From: Escherichia phage ManiMatter_Bas94
Direction: 5' to 3' (one strand)
Sequence record: PQ850617.1
Length of the DNA stretch: 64,000 nucleotides
The position numbers were made by a program, and so were the translations under genes. Within the stretch, counting starts at the first letter, position 1, and every line of letters starts with the position of its first letter. Under the pieces are notes generated by a model. The model had not been told where the DNA came from and ran no database searches. It was given only the letters and a program-made list of their open reading frames with translations. This document shows, one piece after another, positions 41,245 through 51,012 of the stretch.

Positions 41245-41448
41245 TTAGTAGAACGAACGAATTTCATCCCACACTTGTTCCTGTTCTTTCCTATAAAAAG
41301 AAAGTTGGGTCTTGAACATCTCCACTGATGATTCAAAGTTTTTAGATTGTGCAGCTTCAACGAAACGTTCATGTCGGTTGATTTTGCACCGTAGCATTAA
41401 ATACTTGGCTTCAAGTCTCCGAAGAGCCTGTCTTTTCTCAAGATTCAC
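41245..41448 (-). CDS. Hypothetical protein (67 aa)
   Basis: ORF-track ORF. Confidence 0.4.
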   Translation of the reverse strand: MNLEKRQALRRLEAKYLMLRCKINRHERFVEAAQSKNFESSVEMFKTQLSFYRKEQEQVWDEIRSFY

Positions 41449-41857
41449 TTTTCAGATACTCTGACCAGTCGCCAGATTCAACCAGAACGTCTTGTTCTTC
41501 GTCGATGTGATAAATCCAAGCGATAACAGTTTCACCTGAGTCCATCTTAACTGGAATCTGAGTGCGTTGATAGAAACTATCTTCAGGGCTACGTTTGTTG
41601 TAACCTTCCAGTCGGTCATATGGACCTTCCAGACCTTCTTTGTCAGTAGCAAACACTTCTACACGAACAGGCTTATTGTTATTGCTGTGTGCGAGAGAGA
41701 TGCTTGGGAAGTAGGAACCACCATAACGGAACAGATCAAAGTTGTCTTCAGTCCAACCTTCACCAATTGACTTAGCACCAGCTCGGTCATTAACTAAATA
41801 GTTAGCTTGACCACGACGAAGAGAACCATAAGTTGCTACGTAAATTACTTCTGACAT
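41438..41857 (-). CDS. Gamma-glutamyl cyclotransferase-like (GGCT/AIG2) protein
   Basis: YVATYGSLRRGQANY (YGSL motif) and YDRLEGY with the catalytic-type Glu. Confidence 0.7.
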   Translation of the reverse strand: MSEVIYVATYGSLRRGQANYLVNDRAGAKSIGEGWTEDNFDLFRYGGSYFPSISLAHSNNNKPVRVEVFATDKEGLEGPYDRLEGYNKRSPEDSFYQRTQIPVKMDSGETVIAWIYHIDEEQDVLVESGDWSEYLKSES

Positions 41858-41858
41858 T

Positions 41859-42068
41859 TTAAATACCTTTCCAGTCTTTCATGATGTTTTCAATATAAGC
41901 ACACTGTTGATCAGTGGCTCCTGTTACAAACACTTCTAACCCCAACTGCTCGCAGAAGGGATTAAGAATTAGTATTCTGGTTTGTCCATATGAGTGATGC
42001 TCTCGGTAGATAACACACCCAGCATCCCATACAGAATCAATGGCTTTACTTAATCTTTCGTGTTTCAT
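41859..42068 (-). CDS. Hypothetical protein (69 aa)
   Basis: ORF-track ORF. Confidence 0.4.
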   Translation of the reverse strand: MKHERLSKAIDSVWDAGCVIYREHHSYGQTRILILNPFCEQLGLEVFVTGATDQQCAYIENIMKDWKGI

Positions 42069-42121
42069 AAAACCTCCAGTTTATCCGAACTAGCCTCCTC
42101 TTTCGAAGAGGCTAAAGCAGA

Positions 42122-42307
42122 TTACTCTGTAATAAAGATTTTAATCACACCACAGATTACTTCATCATTAAAAGAAGCAACAACTTCTTTATCCTGACAG
42201 AACTCTACTTTACCATTATAAGAGTTGAAGTAGTCAGCGTCAATGTCCATTGCTCGCATTTCACCAGCTGCATTGGTATCTTTAAACAGAACTTTATACT
42301 TATTCAC
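42122..42307 (-). CDS. Hypothetical protein (61 aa)
   Basis: ORF-track ORF with ATGA-type coupling. Confidence 0.4.
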   Translation of the reverse strand: MNKYKVLFKDTNAAGEMRAMDIDADYFNSYNGKVEFCQDKEVVASFNDEVICGVIKIFITE

Positions 42308-48025: not shown

Positions 48026-48034
48026 GATAACCTC

Positions 48035-48841
48035 TTATGCTACCTGAAGGCGTTTAATCTGCTGGTCCGCTTCTTTAACGTTATTACCGTTAATGATTTC
48101 ATGAAGCTTCTCAATCGGAAGGCGAGAGTGCAATGCCATCAGAGTGGACATGTCACACTGCTGAACAACCTTGTCAACCTGATCATAAACAAACTTACGG
48201 TTTTCACGATCGCTAATCCAGAAGTTAGACAGGGAACGATATTCAATACCATAGTCCTTGTAGCGGATTGCAGATGCTTTACCGTAGAGTTCTTTACGGC
48301 GAGTGTCTTTATCCATAATAACTGCTGGGAGGGATAGGAAGTAGTCACACAGCACACCCAGCATCATCTGAGTTTGCAGGGTGATATCCAAAGCACCAAC
48401 TACGCCAAGATGTACGTGACCACCGGCAGTACGAAGCCCCTTATTTTGAGAAGTCGGGGATGGGTTCTTCTGACCAGTGAAAGCGTTGAAATCAGGAGTA
48501 CATCCAAAGATGAACGCTGATTCATTGAAAGTCTTCATCTCTTCTTCAGTGAAGATGTGAGAGCTAACACCCGGAGCTGTTTCCATGTCCAGTTTGTTCA
48601 GGACATTATTGGTGAGATCGATACCACGTTGCATGTTGTCATTAAACGCTTCAAAACCACTCTGTGGGTCAATATCAAACTCAGCCAGTACGTTGTCCTC
48701 TTGAAGACGAACATCCTTAGCCAGAGCGATCTTATCGTCCTTAGAACAACCTAACAGACCAGCTACAGAGGTGATGATTCCTTTGCTGGTACGAACGAAC
48801 ATTTCCGGATCCGATCCTATTAAGAATTTGCGCTTAGTCAT
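48035..48841 (-). CDS. COOH-NH2 ligase (phiEco32-like type 2, GCS2-like)
   Basis: The FLIGSDPEMFV start, HVHLGV and YRSL-type motifs are consistent with my recollection of the phage COOH-NH2 ligase family. Not verified by HMM. Confidence 0.5.
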   Translation of the reverse strand: MTKRKFLIGSDPEMFVRTSKGIITSVAGLLGCSKDDKIALAKDVRLQEDNVLAEFDIDPQSGFEAFNDNMQRGIDLTNNVLNKLDMETAPGVSSHIFTEEEMKTFNESAFIFGCTPDFNAFTGQKNPSPTSQNKGLRTAGGHVHLGVVGALDITLQTQMMLGVLCDYFLSLPAVIMDKDTRRKELYGKASAIRYKDYGIEYRSLSNFWISDRENRKFVYDQVDKVVQQCDMSTLMALHSRLPIEKLHEIINGNNVKEADQQIKRLQVA

Positions 48842-49805
48842 TGTAATACTCCACTAGTTCAGAAAAGAGAGATGAGATTGTGTTACCGATTTCTTCAGGA
48901 TTAAGACCAGAATCTATTCCAGTACGCTGAATTATTCGTGCTGTAAAGTTTTGTACTGTAATGTTTTCCAACTTATTGTCTATTGCTTCACGTTTGTGAC
49001 CATAACAGTTGGACCAGAGTTTTAACCACTCTGACATTGTTTCATACTCATCCGGATCTTGATCTTTAGCACGAGCAAATCTTCGTAAGACATCTGTGTT
49101 GTGGTTACGAACATAACCATTCTCGTTGTCACCAACACCGAAGGGGTTTTGAACCCATACTTGCTTCGTGTATTCATCAGAGTCAACAACCAAAGGAAGG
49201 AATGCTGCTGCTGACATATTGTTGTCAATAACAACAGACGTGCTTTCACTACTCCCATTGGAAGCTCCTCGTTGAGACCACCTACCAAAGAAGTCACGAC
49301 CCAACCCAGCTAACAATAGAGCGATGCCAATGCGTTTACGCTTCAGCCACTCTTCCCTGTCTTCAATTCCTTCTGCTAGGAAATCCATTCCACGATACTG
49401 CCCTTCCAAAATGCTACGGAAGAGCATAAGTCCTGTGAAGATTTGATCTGCTGGATGCTCACGGAGGTTGACAGCTACGCTATTCGCTGAAGTGATTGTG
49501 AATACATCGCGATAGCAAGACATGGAGTTCATAATATCTGCTGTTTCAACCAAGTTCTTTTCAATATAAGATGCATCATGACCGTGAAAAGAGTGAGTCC
49601 AGTAATTCAGCATCTCCAGTTGCAAGTTGATATCACGGTTGAAGCGTCTATAACGCCCCTCTTCCATGATAACTTCGCCATTAATATCGCTTACGCATTG
49701 GCCTTGCATGTAGTTGTGAATACCGAAGCACCCACGACCTAAGAACTTCTGTTCCCCTAAATCTTGTTGAAGATTCAGAGGTACGATCGTTGTGGAGATT
49801 GACAT
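48834..49805 (-). CDS. Cluster protein of unknown function (323 aa)
   Basis: ORF-track ORF that overlaps the next gene by 8 nt. Confidence 0.45.
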   Translation of the reverse strand: MSISTTIVPLNLQQDLGEQKFLGRGCFGIHNYMQGQCVSDINGEVIMEEGRYRRFNRDINLQLEMLNYWTHSFHGHDASYIEKNLVETADIMNSMSCYRDVFTITSANSVAVNLREHPADQIFTGLMLFRSILEGQYRGMDFLAEGIEDREEWLKRKRIGIALLLAGLGRDFFGRWSQRGASNGSSESTSVVIDNNMSAAAFLPLVVDSDEYTKQVWVQNPFGVGDNENGYVRNHNTDVLRRFARAKDQDPDEYETMSEWLKLWSNCYGHKREAIDNKLENITVQNFTARIIQRTGIDSGLNPEEIGNTISSLFSELVEYYND

Positions 49806-49815
49806 AACTAACCTT

Positions 49816-51012
49816 TTATTTTCCTAAAAATAATCCGCTCATAATACCATCCCACTCAGAGGATGGGATCACTGAATACTCCGAACTTTGGTCCAGAGTT
49901 CCACTACTAAATCGCTGAACAATGTTATAGATGTTGAACAGGTCTTTAGCCTCAGTACGGATACCGTAGACTAATTTATCAGATGTTCTTTCATCTTTAG
50001 ATACCCGACGAGCAAAATTAACCAGAAGGTTGTCACATTTAAGCGTTTCTGACCCACTCTCTACCAAATCAGGGTGCATCACAGGCAAGAACATCGAGTT
50101 ATTGACTCGCAACTCTGCTGTTTCGTCATTCTCATAATGAATCCACTTAAAGTCTTCATCACGGAAGTGACCACAACCATCTCTGTACGACTGCTGACGC
50201 CAAGGCACTTGAAATGCTTCAGCGTATTTATCAGCCATGCCGACTGTAAACAGCGACGCTGGGAAGATACAAGCATCCCAATCATTACCAACCAGAGTTG
50301 CTTTAGTTTCCCCCAAGAGGTTAGTGTAAGTGCTAACCATTCGGGAGTAAATGTAAGCCTGAAGAATTGTCCAGCCTTCAATCAACCATTTATGAAGGAA
50401 GGTTTCAACTTGACTCTCTTCGTCTTCGCAATAGAAGGTTCGGTCTAGCATTAAATAGAACAGACAACGATCAGCAGGGATGTTCTCAGTTGCTACACCC
50501 ATAAAACCTTTCTCGTGCCAGCGTAAACAGGAGGGACGATCTTTGTCCACAAATGCTTCCATAGCTTCCAGTACAGCACGAGGTGAGGTTTGGTATTCAG
50601 GGTTTTTACTATTCCAACGATCAATGTTGTTCTTAGGAGGTGTGTCTTCATCTTCATACGAACACCAACTTAAAGCTTCGGATACATGCTCTGCGTCATG
50701 CCAACGTCTAAAACCTAACATCTTCATGTGAGTTCCGGAGTTCCAGATATGCTTGATTTTACACATATCCATCTCTCGGCTTAACAGGAACTCTTCCCCA
50801 TCAGCACTACGAACGTTAGCTTCTTCATGCCACACTCGAACGTGCATATTCCACCCATGAGTTGCCTCATACATATTAGGGTCGAAGTATTCATATTCGT
50901 CGTCATCTTCATCAACGCCACCATTATAGTTGCGAAGCTGAAGGAATCCATAACAAGGAGGGTTAACCGTTAAAACATTACCTTCAGTATCTTCTAATGT
51001 TACTGGAAACAT
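49816..51012 (-). CDS. Cluster protein of unknown function (398 aa)
   Basis: ORF-track ORF and first large gene of the cluster. Confidence 0.45.
   Translation of the reverse strand: MFPVTLEDTEGNVLTVNPPCYGFLQLRNYNGGVDEDDDEYEYFDPNMYEATHGWNMHVRVWHEEANVRSADGEEFLLSREMDMCKIKHIWNSGTHMKMLGFRRWHDAEHVSEALSWCSYEDEDTPPKNNIDRWNSKNPEYQTSPRAVLEAMEAFVDKDRPSCLRWHEKGFMGVATENIPADRCLFYLMLDRTFYCEDEESQVETFLHKWLIEGWTILQAYIYSRMVSTYTNLLGETKATLVGNDWDACIFPASLFTVGMADKYAEAFQVPWRQQSYRDGCGHFRDEDFKWIHYENDETAELRVNNSMFLPVMHPDLVESGSETLKCDNLLVNFARRVSKDERTSDKLVYGIRTEAKDLFNIYNIVQRFSSGTLDQSSEYSVIPSSEWDGIMSGLFLGK

What the first reader, a model, noticed from the sequence alone, without database searches (positions are those of the whole stretch)
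41438..51012. Nine-gene peptide-ligase / amidotransferase cluster of unknown substrate
Co-directional and mostly translationally coupled genes encode the following:
- a 398-aa and a 323-aa unknown protein
- a COOH-NH2 ligase (GCS2-like)
- a 205-aa unknown protein
- a GS-like amidoligase (GIELELEG)
- a class-II GATase fused to three Cys-cluster modules
- two small proteins
- a RimK-like ATP-grasp with an acidic linker and C-terminal extension
- further downstream, a gamma-glutamyl cyclotransferase-like protein

To my knowledge, such phage clusters have only been noted by comparative genomics as predicted makers of a peptide-like metabolite or a peptide tag. The target (virion protein, nucleotide or DNA, cell-wall precursor, or host protein) is not established.

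Three ATP-dependent ligases, one amide donor and a gamma-glutamyl-releasing enzyme together suggest stepwise build-up and trimming of a gamma-glutamyl/amide-linked adduct.
Basis: partly seen in the sequence, partly recalled or inferred. Interest (0 to 1): 0.7.

Follow-up and report, generated by a model that had tools for sequence, protein, structure and literature searches.

The report
Phage glutamyl-amide ligase gene module
This ten-kilobase block of phage genes is the cluster already described by comparative genomics in coliphage phiEco32: five intact enzymes that make and break glutamate-type amide bonds, plus four helper proteins, with the target still unknown.

Summary
The window is a Kuravirus (phiEco32-like) coliphage, 98-99% identical to Bas92, Bas93 and LAMP.

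On the minus strand, tightly packed, lie:
- two unknowns (398 and 323 aa)
- a COOH-NH2 ligase (PF14395)
- a 205-aa unknown
- Amidoligase_2
- a class-II glutamine amidotransferase with zinc ribbons
- DUF7195 and a 74-aa protein
- a RimK-like ATP-grasp
- a GGACT cyclotransferase, after an embedded gp79 regulator

All five enzymes keep their catalytic residues across very distant relatives.

What I add:
- The amidotransferase starts at an ATT codon (46228) directly before its catalytic Cys. It is 676 aa, not 563.
- The 205-aa protein is made of small beta-barrels and is not an enzyme.
- The same gene order, ending at the primase/helicase, recurs in LUZ24-like, 7-11-like, Aeromonas and Vibrio phages.

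This is the archetype cluster named in Pfam, so it is already known. I found no experimental work on it. A glutamyl-amide build-and-trim pathway is the best reading. The substrate is unresolved. A DNA modification that would explain Kuravirus restriction resistance is not excluded but is disfavoured.

The parts
49816..51012 (-). X1, a 398-aa protein of a new phage-only superfamily. Invariant C20 sits in 'PPCYGF'. Other motifs are ADRCLFYLMxxR, WRQ and GHxRD.
48834..49805 (-). X2, a 323-aa paralogue of X1. Invariant C26 sits in 'CFG'. Other motifs are PADxxFTGLMxxR, WxQ and GYxR.
   Evidence: An HMM network through distant homologues links X1 and X2 at E 1e-6 to 1e-9. The shared invariant Cys, Arg, Gln and G[YH]xR are seen. 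Direct hhalign is not significant.
48035..48841 (-). COOH-NH2 ligase type 2, a GCS2/glutamine-synthetase-like ATP-dependent carboxylate-amine ligase.
   Evidence: PF14395 at 34.1 bits. PHROG 3815 at 2e-118. 80 invariant positions across 6 divergent phages, including E13, E48, E54, H95, R137, H142, H144, E200 and R202.
47408..48025 (-). Y, a 205-aa accessory protein made of small SH3/Tudor/KOW-like beta-barrels. It carries a conserved basic loop RQRxKGLxGNKxR. D6, Y10, K110, G111 and K160 are invariant.
46308..47411 (-). Amidoligase_2, a glutamine-synthetase-like ligase with the GIELELEG motif.
   Evidence: PF12224 at 33.3 bits. PHROG 7469 at 9e-158. E31, E33, E35, E58, H95, H97, R130, E186 and R188 are invariant in 8 divergent homologues.
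46229..46307 (-). 79-nt spacer with two hairpins and a GGTGGA Shine-Dalgarno sequence ahead of the ATT start. Relatives carry an HNH homing endonuclease at this site.
   Evidence: Sequence. Fold of -28.1 kcal/mol, z-score -1.8. The hairpin plus ATT is conserved in six loci, including Aeromonas phage BUCT695. HNH insertions are seen in L004 and in UFV-P2 ORF24 (PMC3890496).
44198..46228 (-). Class-II (Ntn) glutamine amidotransferase or gamma-glutamyl amidohydrolase, 676 codons, with an ATT start. It has a conserved middle region and three C-terminal CxxC...CxxC zinc ribbons.
   Evidence: GATase_6 at 56.7 bits. C1, R85, N110-G111 and D128 are invariant. The zinc ribbons vary from 0 to 3 among relatives. 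There is no SIS domain, and GlmS scores 44.8 bits against a cut-off of 381.
43960..44193 (-). DUF7195 small protein (77 aa), conserved across the whole module family.
   Evidence: PF23825 at 61.9 bits. Present in all the C3-type, Aeromonas and Vibrio loci that reach this position. LUZ24 gp20 matches at E 6e-6. It has no conserved C-terminus.
43755..43979 (-). 74-aa helical protein, conserved only among close relatives.
42559..43752 (-). RimK-like ATP-grasp ligase (basic catalytic domain), followed by an acidic linker and a basic C-terminal beta-rich domain.
   Evidence: K85, R121, E157, K173, D229, E241 and N243 are invariant. Domain pI values are 9.2, 4.05 and 10.5. The C-terminal domain matches PHROG 20552, a profile of only 82 positions.
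42304..42552 (-). Homologue of phiEco32 gp79, an RNA-polymerase-binding regulator. It is embedded in the block but is not part of the enzyme system.
   Evidence: Annotation of phage Paul. Absent from 7-11, Privateer, Aeromonas, Vibrio and LUZ24 versions of the module. PMC8948821 reports that 7-11 and GAP52 lack gp79.
41438..41857 (-). GGACT/AIG2-like gamma-glutamylamine cyclotransferase. It is an integral, co-conserved member of the module.
   Evidence: PF06094 at 64.6 bits. Y10-G11-x-L13 and E84 are invariant. It lies inside the cluster in L025 and directly after the ATP-grasp in LUZ24 and UFV-P2. It is present in 7-11, Privateer and GAP52.

Best explanation
This is the phiEco32-type 'amidoligase module'. 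It is an ancient, vertically conserved operon transcribed just ahead of the replication genes.

Five catalytically intact enzymes handle glutamyl amide bonds:
- A GCS2-like COOH-NH2 ligase and a glutamine-synthetase-like Amidoligase_2 activate a carboxylate with ATP and join it to an amine. Gamma-glutamyl-type bonds are the expected product.
- The Ntn class-II enzyme either feeds ammonia from glutamine to Amidoligase_2 or hydrolyses a gamma-glutamyl amide.
- The RimK-like ATP-grasp adds alpha-linked glutamate or another amino acid to an acidic end.
- The GGACT cyclotransferase removes a gamma-glutamyl group as 5-oxoproline and frees the amine. In one variant a Peptidase_C26 is present as well.

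Four accessory proteins most likely provide substrate recognition, complex assembly or an extra thiol-dependent step. They are two Cys-bearing paralogues of a new fold, a double beta-barrel protein and DUF7195.

I think the most likely product is a gamma-glutamyl-linked adduct that is built, amidated or extended, and then trimmed on a cytoplasmic amine-bearing substrate. That substrate would be a small-molecule amine or peptide, or a protein side chain or terminus, rather than a DNA base.

Shown: gene content, gene order, intact catalytic motifs, deep conservation and expression.
Inferred: reaction order, bond types and the substrate.
For: - Family assignments.
- Catalytic residues are invariant in 6-8 homologues down to about 27-40% identity.
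- The same gene order appears in phiEco32-like, 7-11/Privateer-like, Aeromonas BUCT695, Vibrio SJSY21 and Pseudomonas LUZ24/UFV-P2 phages. The cyclotransferase and then the primase/helicase follow the cluster where the fetched stretch reaches them: directly in LUZ24/UFV-P2, BUCT695 and L004/L005, and 9-14 kb away in 7-11, Privateer and GAP52.
- The reduced variant L025 keeps only the enzymes. These are the COOH-NH2 ligase, GGACT, the class-II amidotransferase, Amidoligase_2 and the ATP-grasp, plus a Peptidase_C26 gamma-glutamyl hydrolase. So two different gamma-glutamyl-removing enzymes are recruited to the same ligase core.
- The Ntn enzyme keeps every residue that binds the free alpha-amino and alpha-carboxyl groups of a glutamyl moiety.
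- The proteins are made during infection. The ATP-grasp, the amidotransferase, YtfP/GGACT and the 23-kDa Y protein were detected by mass spectrometry in SU10 lysates (PMC4281155).
- In PaP3, ORF32-48 are middle genes together with the primase/helicase ORF40 (PMC4707531). That range includes module genes p42 to p47.
- From my own knowledge, the same enzyme families run gamma-glutamyl 'add and remove' chemistry in four known pathways: PuuA/PuuD, EgtA/EgtC, BtrJ/BtrG and GshA/GshB/GGCT.
Against: - No substrate, product or phenotype is known.
- The ATP-grasp, GlmS-like and RimK-like matches are far below equivalog cut-offs, so the specific chemistry cannot be transferred.
- The accessory proteins have no known fold relatives. 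Their role is guesswork.
- Gordonclarkvirinae are unexplainedly resistant to restriction (PMC11990801), although this genome carries 11 EcoRI, 30 EcoRV, 7 EcoKI and 81 EcoP1 sites. That keeps a DNA target alive.
- Amidoligase and amidotransferase genes co-occur with thymidine-hypermodification genes in some viral contigs (PMC8989533).
Confidence: 0.55

Rival explanations
1. DNA (or dNTP) hypermodification. The module would attach an amino-acid-type adduct to phage DNA during replication. The Cys-bearing X1/X2 pair would act as the base-activating or transfer enzymes. The adduct would give the broad restriction resistance of Kuraviruses.
For: - The module always sits next to the replication genes, close to the primase/helicase.
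- Gordonclarkvirinae resist type I-III restriction systems with no known modification pathway (PMC11990801). Yet this genome has many EcoRI, EcoRV, EcoKI and EcoP1 sites.
- Amidoligase and amidotransferase genes accompany 5-HMUDK/aGPT-Pplase genes in viral contigs (PMC8989533).
- A paralogous pair of unknown enzymes heads the cluster.
Against: - No hydroxymethylase, 5-hmU kinase, aGPT-Pplase, DpdA or TET/JBP was found in the proteins I scanned.
- The phage has an ordinary ThyX and dCTP deaminase.
- Phage Rembedalsseter carries the module's ligase (H79). Nanopore comparison of native and amplified DNA reported only nicks (PMC11780129).
- The genome strongly avoids CCWGG (3 against 94 expected), GATC (133 against 297) and PstI sites (0 against 19). 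This suggests its bases are read as unmodified by at least some enzymes.
- The accessory proteins are acidic and not DNA-binding-like.
Confidence: 0.12
2. Cell-wall precursor modification. The enzymes would amidate or extend the gamma-D-Glu/mDAP stem peptide of peptidoglycan precursors. This would block superinfection or tune lysis. It is the suggestion attributed to Iyer et al. 2009.
For: - Two papers paraphrase the 2009 prediction in this way (PMC10580990; PMC11318856).
- From my own knowledge, the enzyme families mirror stem-peptide chemistry: a Ddl-like ATP-grasp, glutamine-dependent amidation and gamma-glutamyl linkages.
Against: - There is no Mur-ligase-type enzyme.
- The original paper could not be read.
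- The module is co-expressed with replication genes, not with lysis genes.
- The same module serves hosts as different as Pseudomonas, Vibrio and E. coli.
- The benefit for a strictly lytic phage is unclear.
Confidence: 0.1
3. Protein tagging or carrier-protein chemistry. The ligases would glutamylate a protein. One version resembles RimK on S6 or PafA/Dop pupylation. The other assembles the adduct on an invariant lysine of the co-translated Y protein, as with LysW or lipoyl carriers. The cyclotransferase would then clear it.
For: - Y is non-enzymatic and translationally coupled between the two GS-like ligases. It has invariant K110 and K160, with K110 in a conserved loop of lower model confidence.
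- The ATP-grasp catalytic domain is basic, which suits acidic tails.
- X1 carries a conserved acidic run.
- Zinc ribbons and small barrels are typical protein-binding modules.
Against: - The small proteins have no conserved C-terminal Gly, Glu or Gln, so none is a Pup- or ubiquitin-like tag.
- From my own knowledge, GGACT enzymes act on free gamma-glutamyl amines.
- L025 lacks any detectable X or Y homologue yet keeps all the enzymes.
- No mass-shift data exist.
Confidence: 0.15
4. Ordinary metabolic support. The module would be a phage copy of the gamma-glutamyl cycle or of glutamine handling. It would make a glutathione-like thiol or remodel folate or cofactor polyglutamate tails to sustain nucleotide synthesis.
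For: - GCS2-like ligase + ATP-grasp + GGCT equals the GshA/GshB/GGCT set (my own knowledge).
- Peptidase_C26 in L025 is the folate gamma-glutamyl hydrolase family.
- Thioredoxin, ThyX and dCTP deaminase are encoded nearby.
Against: - From my own knowledge, hosts already hold millimolar glutathione.
- No match reaches any equivalog cut-off.
- Four conserved accessory proteins and a second ligase are unnecessary for such a role.
- The close family is phage-only. The bacterial genome scan found only phage contigs.
Confidence: 0.08

Closest known systems
phiEco32 gp78-gp88 cluster, the phage amidoligase system predicted by Iyer, Abhiman, Burroughs and Aravind (2009). Pfam PF14395 is named after it ('Phage phiEco32-like COOH.NH2 ligase-type 2').
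   Same: It is the same genes. The Y protein is 98% identical to phiEco32 (H34). The whole block is 93-99% identical to Kuraviruses.
   Different: Nothing essential. This genome (LAMP/Bas92/93 clade) lacks the HNH insertion some relatives carry. It keeps the 69-aa ORF that Bas93 lacks.
LUZ24 gp14-gp22, with PaP3 and UFV-P2 ORF19-29 (Bruynoghevirus and Vicosavirus, Pseudomonas).
   Same: Same order: X, X, COOH-NH2 ligase, Y, Amidoligase_2, (HNH), amidotransferase, DUF7195, ATP-grasp, GGCT, primase/helicase.
   Different: The proteins are shorter, with one zinc ribbon and no ATP-grasp C-terminal domain. There is no gp79. The X proteins are recognisable only by position, by the CFG motif and by one weak HMM hit at E 2e-3.
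Gamma-glutamyl 'add and remove' pathways: PuuA/PuuD (putrescine), EgtA/EgtC (ergothioneine), BtrJ/BtrG (butirosin) and GshA/GshB/GGCT. These are from my own knowledge.
   Same: The enzyme superfamilies are the same: GS/GCS-like ligase, ATP-grasp, Ntn or C26 amidohydrolase and GGCT. So is the logic of installing and later removing a gamma-glutamyl group.
   Different: There is no equivalog-level match. The phage module combines all of these families in one operon, with two ligases of the GS fold and four unknown partners. The substrate is unknown.
Pupylation (PafA/Dop with Pup).
   Same: A pair of GS/GCS-fold carboxylate-amine ligase homologues lies next to small proteins.
   Different: No small protein has a conserved C-terminal GGQ/GGE. 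There are no proteasome genes.
Phage thymidine hypermodification clusters (5-HMUDK, paired aGPT-Pplases, PLP enzymes).
   Same: Both are replication-linked. Both start with a paralogous pair of enzymes. Both are sometimes accompanied by amidoligase and amidotransferase genes (PMC8989533).
   Different: None of the defining enzymes is detectable here. The X1 fold has no glycosylase-like match.

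Membership tests
phiEco32-type phage amidoligase module | COOH-NH2 ligase type 2 (PF14395) above the gathering score | tested here: met
   34.1 bits against a cut-off of 25. Catalytic residues are invariant.
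phiEco32-type phage amidoligase module | Amidoligase_2 (PF12224) adjacent to a class-II amidotransferase with an N-terminal Cys | tested here: met
   33.3 bits against 22. GATase_6 at 56.7 bits against 27. Cys follows the ATT start directly.
phiEco32-type phage amidoligase module | RimK-like ATP-grasp and AIG2/GGACT cyclotransferase in the same gene block | tested here: met
   PHROG 2599 at 1e-180, with the Mg triad conserved. GGACT at 64.6 bits. Co-occurrence is seen in all the relatives examined.
phiEco32-type phage amidoligase module | Near-identity and synteny with phiEco32 itself | tested here: met
RimK (ribosomal protein S6 glutamate ligase), the database name of the ATP-grasp | Score above the RimK family or equivalog cut-off | tested here: not met
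   TIGR00768 at 32 bits against 143.4. NF007764 at 26 bits against 331. The PDB matches are only local, at E about 1e-3.
GlmS (glutamine-fructose-6-phosphate aminotransferase), the database name of the amidotransferase | Ntn domain plus two SIS isomerase domains, with an equivalog-level score | tested here: not met
   44.8 bits against 381, and the match covers the Ntn domain only. The C-terminal half is a phage-specific region plus zinc ribbons.
Pupylation-like peptide tag system | Small tag protein with a conserved C-terminal Gly-Gly-Gln/Glu | tested here: not met
   DUF7195 and the 74-aa protein have variable C-termini.
Thymidine hypermodification pathway | dUMP hydroxymethylase or TET/JBP, 5-HMUDK kinase and aGPT-Pplase | tested here: not met
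   There are no such Pfam, NCBIfam or PHROG hits in the cluster proteins or in the neighbours I scanned. The thymidylate synthase is a standard ThyX.
Known anti-phage defence systems | Match to a PADLOC model | tested here: not met
   No hits for the 10 proteins.
LysW/LysX amino-group carrier system | Small zinc-ribbon carrier with an acidic C-terminal Glu, next to a RimK-family ligase | tested here: not met
   The small proteins have no conserved acidic C-terminus. The zinc ribbons are fused to the amidotransferase, whose sequence ends in ...SLNRG.

The most novel reading that the evidence does not exclude
The module would be a new kind of DNA-modification pathway. The Cys-bearing X1/X2 pair (a fold without solved relatives) would activate a base or transfer onto it. 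The three ligases, the amidotransferase and the cyclotransferase would build and mature a glutamyl- or amide-type adduct. This would account for the unexplained resistance of Gordonclarkvirinae to type I, II and III restriction despite abundant recognition sites.
Probability: 0.12. Interest if true: 0.9.

Novelty: already known. Interest (0 to 1): 0.5.

Why it matters
The module takes up about 10 kb of a roughly 68-kb genome. Its ligase is found in at least 318 sequenced phages. These include Kuravirus and Bruynoghevirus isolates that appear in phage-therapy reports. After 17 years it has no experimentally assigned function.

Kuraviruses now infect E. coli K-12 (BASEL Bas86-93). They show an unexplained, near-complete restriction resistance (PMC11990801). 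The cluster is therefore genetically testable and has a candidate phenotype.

Whatever the substrate, the answer would define:
- a new phage host-takeover or genome-protection chemistry
- functions for two orphan protein superfamilies (X1/X2 and Y)

Tried and rejected
- Direct profile-profile comparison of the X1 and X2 families was not significant: probability 0.3-0.9%, E 0.06-0.18. Paralogy rests on intermediate-sequence HMMs and Foldseek.
- The AFDB Foldseek library was unavailable.
- NCBIfam and PADLOC gave nothing useful.
- The small proteins were considered as Pup/ubiquitin-like tags and rejected, because no C-terminus is conserved.
- Y and the zinc-ribbon region were considered as nucleic-acid binders. 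This is not supported by charge: pI 5.96 and 5.43.
- The phiEco32 gp36 promoter consensus TAATGTATA has no exact match in or just upstream of the cluster. The sigma-70 and terminator scans were uninformative.
- The bacterial genome scan returned only phage contigs inside assemblies.
- A locus search with the wide Y alignment failed for lack of conserved stretches.
- Larger proteins with Y-like domains carry no informative fused domain.
- Iyer et al. 2009 and Savalia et al. 2008 are not held in the library. The original prediction is therefore cited second-hand.
- The LUZ24 transcriptome paper does not mention these genes.
- Restriction-site avoidance as the explanation for restriction resistance was rejected for EcoRI, EcoRV, EcoKI and EcoP1.

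Full report
**Identity of the window.** The 9.6-kb region is 98-99% identical to Escherichia phages Bas93, Bas92 and LAMP. It is 93-95% identical to some 70 other Kuraviruses, among them NJ01, SU10 and Paul. In tblastn the 205-aa protein is 98% identical to phiEco32 itself. The window is therefore a phiEco32-like podophage with the elongated (C3-type) head. The finding is the very cluster that gave Pfam PF14395 its name, 'Phage phiEco32-like COOH.NH2 ligase-type 2'.

Family assignments:

| Protein | Evidence |
|---|---|
| COOH-NH2 ligase | 34.1 bits, cut-off 25 |
| Amidoligase_2 | 33.3 bits, cut-off 22 |
| GGACT | 64.6 bits, cut-off 22.8 |
| Class-II amidotransferase, full length | 56.7 bits, cut-off 27 |
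| RimK-like ATP-grasp | below Pfam cut-offs; PHROG 2599 at 1e-180 |

Gene junctions are overlaps of 4-20 nt or gaps of 2-10 nt, except for a 79-nt spacer before the amidotransferase (coordinates).

Three corrections are needed.
- First, the amidotransferase ORF as listed starts at a TTG and lacks its catalytic Cys. The reading frame is open back to 46231. The codon before the Cys is ATT at 46228, preceded by GGTGGA. Bas93 annotates this 2031-nt gene, whereas phage Paul annotates the truncated form.
- Second, three small ORFs lie between the ATP-grasp and the cyclotransferase. One is the homologue of phiEco32 gp79, the RNA-polymerase regulator (PMC8948821). It occurs only in the Kuravirus-like lineage, so it is a passenger.
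- Third, the cyclotransferase belongs to the system (see the section on conservation below).

**The enzymes are intact.** I aligned each enzyme with 5-7 homologues from phages as distant as LUZ24 and the metagenomic contig L025, at about 27-40% identity. The residues expected to do catalysis are invariant:
- Amidoligase_2: three Glu of GIELELEG, plus E58, H95, H97, R130, E186 and R188.
- COOH-NH2 ligase: E13, E48, E54, H95, R137, H142, H144, E200 and R202.
- ATP-grasp: D229, E241 and N243, together with K85 and K173.
- Ntn enzyme: Cys1, R85, N110-G111 and D128, the set that binds a glutamyl moiety with free alpha groups.
- Cyclotransferase: YGxL and E84.

The common database names are overcalls. 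'L-glutamine-D-fructose-6-phosphate aminotransferase' scores 44.8 bits against a GlmS cut-off of 381. 'Ribosomal protein S6 glutaminyl transferase' scores 26-32 bits against RimK cut-offs of 143-331.

**The unknowns.**

X1 (398 aa) and X2 (323 aa) each have only 17-20 homologous protein clusters among 5.8 billion sequences. All are from related phage contigs.
- Foldseek against viral models found two different 290-320-aa proteins each in GAP52 and in Aeromonas phage LAh_8, at E 1e-6 to 4e-3.
- HMMs built from the first-position and second-position proteins of distant phages each hit both X1 and X2 orthologues at 1e-6 to 1e-9.
- Direct hhalign of the two close families is not significant.
- I conclude that X1 and X2 are a paralogous pair of one orphan superfamily. 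Its invariant residues are a Cys in 'C[FY]G' (X1 C20, X2 C26), the Arg of 'LMxxR', the Gln of 'WxQ' and 'G[YH]xR'. In the model the Cys lies between a strand and a helix. That arrangement suggests a nucleophile, which is inference.

Y (205 aa) is far better conserved: 55% identity where X1 has fallen to 33%.
- An exhaustive profile search found 64 representatives of about 180-220 aa.
- D6, Y10, K110, G111 and K160 are invariant.

DUF7195 is conserved throughout but has a variable C-terminus. This rules out a Pup/ubiquitin-type tag.

**Conservation.** The order is X, X, COOH-NH2 ligase, Y, Amidoligase_2, amidotransferase, DUF7195, ATP-grasp. It recurs in:
- 35-100-kb metagenomic relatives
- Privateer-type and CsaP_009-type phages
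- Aeromonas phage BUCT695
- Vibrio phage SJSY21, which has a single X protein
- Pseudomonas phages LUZ24 (gp14-gp22) and UFV-P2 (ORF19-29)

In LUZ24, UFV-P2, BUCT695 and L004/L005 the cyclotransferase and then the primase/helicase follow the ATP-grasp. In 7-11, Privateer and GAP52 the cyclotransferase is present but lies 9-14 kb away.

The contig L025 keeps only the enzymes, in the order Peptidase_C26, COOH-NH2 ligase, GGACT, class-II amidotransferase, Amidoligase_2, ATP-grasp. It has no detectable X or Y. The five enzymes are therefore the core. X, Y and DUF7195 are lineage-wide accessories.

The ligase occurs in 318 phage records. A scan of 185,579 bacterial genomes found only phage contigs.

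**Expression.**
- In SU10, mass spectrometry of PEG-concentrated lysate detected the ATP-grasp, the amidotransferase, the YtfP-type cyclotransferase and the 23-kDa Y protein (PMC4281155).
- gp79 is a middle-gene product in phiEco32 (PMC8948821).
- In PaP3, ORF32-48 are middle genes, like the primase/helicase ORF40 (PMC4707531). That range includes module genes p42 to p47.

**Mechanism.** The enzyme set comprises two GS/GCS-fold carboxylate-amine ligases, an ATP-grasp, an Ntn glutaminase or gamma-glutamyl amidase, and a gamma-glutamylamine cyclotransferase. L025 adds a C26 gamma-glutamyl hydrolase. This fits a pathway that installs, amidates or extends, and then removes gamma-glutamyl-type amide bonds on an amine-bearing substrate.

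From my own knowledge, the same logic operates in putrescine catabolism (PuuA/PuuD), ergothioneine synthesis (EgtA/EgtC), butirosin synthesis (BtrJ/BtrG) and the gamma-glutamyl cycle.

What is shown is the gene content, the intact active sites, the co-conservation and the expression. The order of reactions and the substrate are inferred.

Observed and expected site counts in the window:

| Site | Observed | Expected |
|---|---|---|
| EcoRI | 11 | 23.2 |
| EcoRV | 30 | 19.4 |
| EcoKI | 7 | 7.8 |
| EcoP1 | 81 | 107.5 |
| CCWGG | 3 | 94 |
| GATC | 133 | 297 |
| PstI | 0 | 19 |

Site avoidance therefore does not explain the resistance. Amidoligase and amidotransferase genes also accompany thymidine-hypermodification genes in some viral contigs (PMC8989533). 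A DNA target is thus a live hypothesis.

Four points count against it:
- No base-activating enzyme is detectable.
- The thymidylate synthase is a normal ThyX.
- The module-bearing phage Rembedalsseter (H79) showed only nicks in a Nanopore comparison of native and amplified DNA (PMC11780129).
- The extreme avoidance of CCWGG, GATC and PstI sites argues that the bases are read as ordinary by at least some enzymes.

I put this reading at about 12%.

**Novelty and verdict.** The cluster is the archetype of a system described by comparative genomics in 2009. Later papers only repeat that prediction, as cell-wall modification or superinfection exclusion. I found no experimental work. It is therefore already known, but functionally unsolved.

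The additions here are:
- the ATT start
- the X1/X2 paralogy and orphan fold
- the barrel nature of Y
- the five-enzyme core
- the shared gene order with LUZ24-like phages
- the link to an unexplained restriction-resistance phenotype

The interest is moderate. It is a long-standing open question that is now testable in K-12-infecting BASEL Kuraviruses, but it is not a new discovery.

Noticed in passing
window 46226-46260 (minus strand); also L003, L004, L008, L016, L024: The amidotransferase starts with ATT directly before its catalytic Cys. Upstream lies a conserved element, AAAGGGTTTACCCTT-CAGGTGGATTAGAAA-ATT-TGT. The same element occurs in Aeromonas phage BUCT695, whereas closer relatives (L005, L017-L019) use ATG with an AGAGGA Shine-Dalgarno sequence. 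This suggests deliberately weak or regulated initiation. Several GenBank records (for example phage Paul, 562 aa) annotate a truncated protein without the nucleophile.
   Followed up: partly
whole window: There is very strong avoidance of CCWGG (3 observed, 94 expected), GATC (133 against 297), PstI (0 against 19) and BamHI (2 against 11). EcoRI (11), EcoRV (30), EcoKI (7) and EcoP1 (81) sites are plentiful. Site avoidance therefore cannot explain the restriction resistance reported for BASEL Kuraviruses.
   Followed up: partly
window 46229-46307; L004 11743-12144; UFV-P2 ORF24: The spacer between Amidoligase_2 and the amidotransferase is a recurrent insertion site for HNH homing endonucleases in relatives as distant as Pseudomonas phage UFV-P2. 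This window has the empty 79-nt site with two hairpins.
   Followed up: partly
window 37580-38935 (minus strand): The 451-aa protein annotated elsewhere as 'nucleotidyltransferase' or class II CCA-adding-enzyme-like has no Pfam or NCBIfam hit. BASEL authors suggested that it, together with the dCTP deaminase, might underlie a DNA modification. It is absent from the corresponding position in Aeromonas phage BUCT695.
   Followed up: partly
window 26381-26389 and 31892-31900 (minus strand); 1034, 17917 and 26453 (plus strand): These are exact matches to the phiEco32 gp36-holoenzyme promoter consensus TAATGTATA. There are none within or just upstream of the amidoligase block.
   Followed up: no
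window 51568-51585, 52033-52058 and 52858-52877 (minus strand): Three terminator-like hairpins followed by T runs lie upstream of the cluster. The block, from the conserved 120-aa ORF at 51024-51386 onward, may therefore begin a separate transcription unit.
   Followed up: no
L009-L012 (bacterial assemblies): Contigs of Kuravirus-like phage are deposited inside assemblies labelled Herbiconiux daphne and an uncultured Peptococcaceae MAG. This is probably contamination or mis-binning.
   Followed up: no
window 42215-42243 (minus strand): A near-consensus sigma-70 promoter (TTGACG, 17 nt, TATAAT; 11 of 12 matches) lies inside the 61-aa ORF, upstream of the 69-aa ORF, the cyclotransferase and the primase/helicase.
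   Followed up: no
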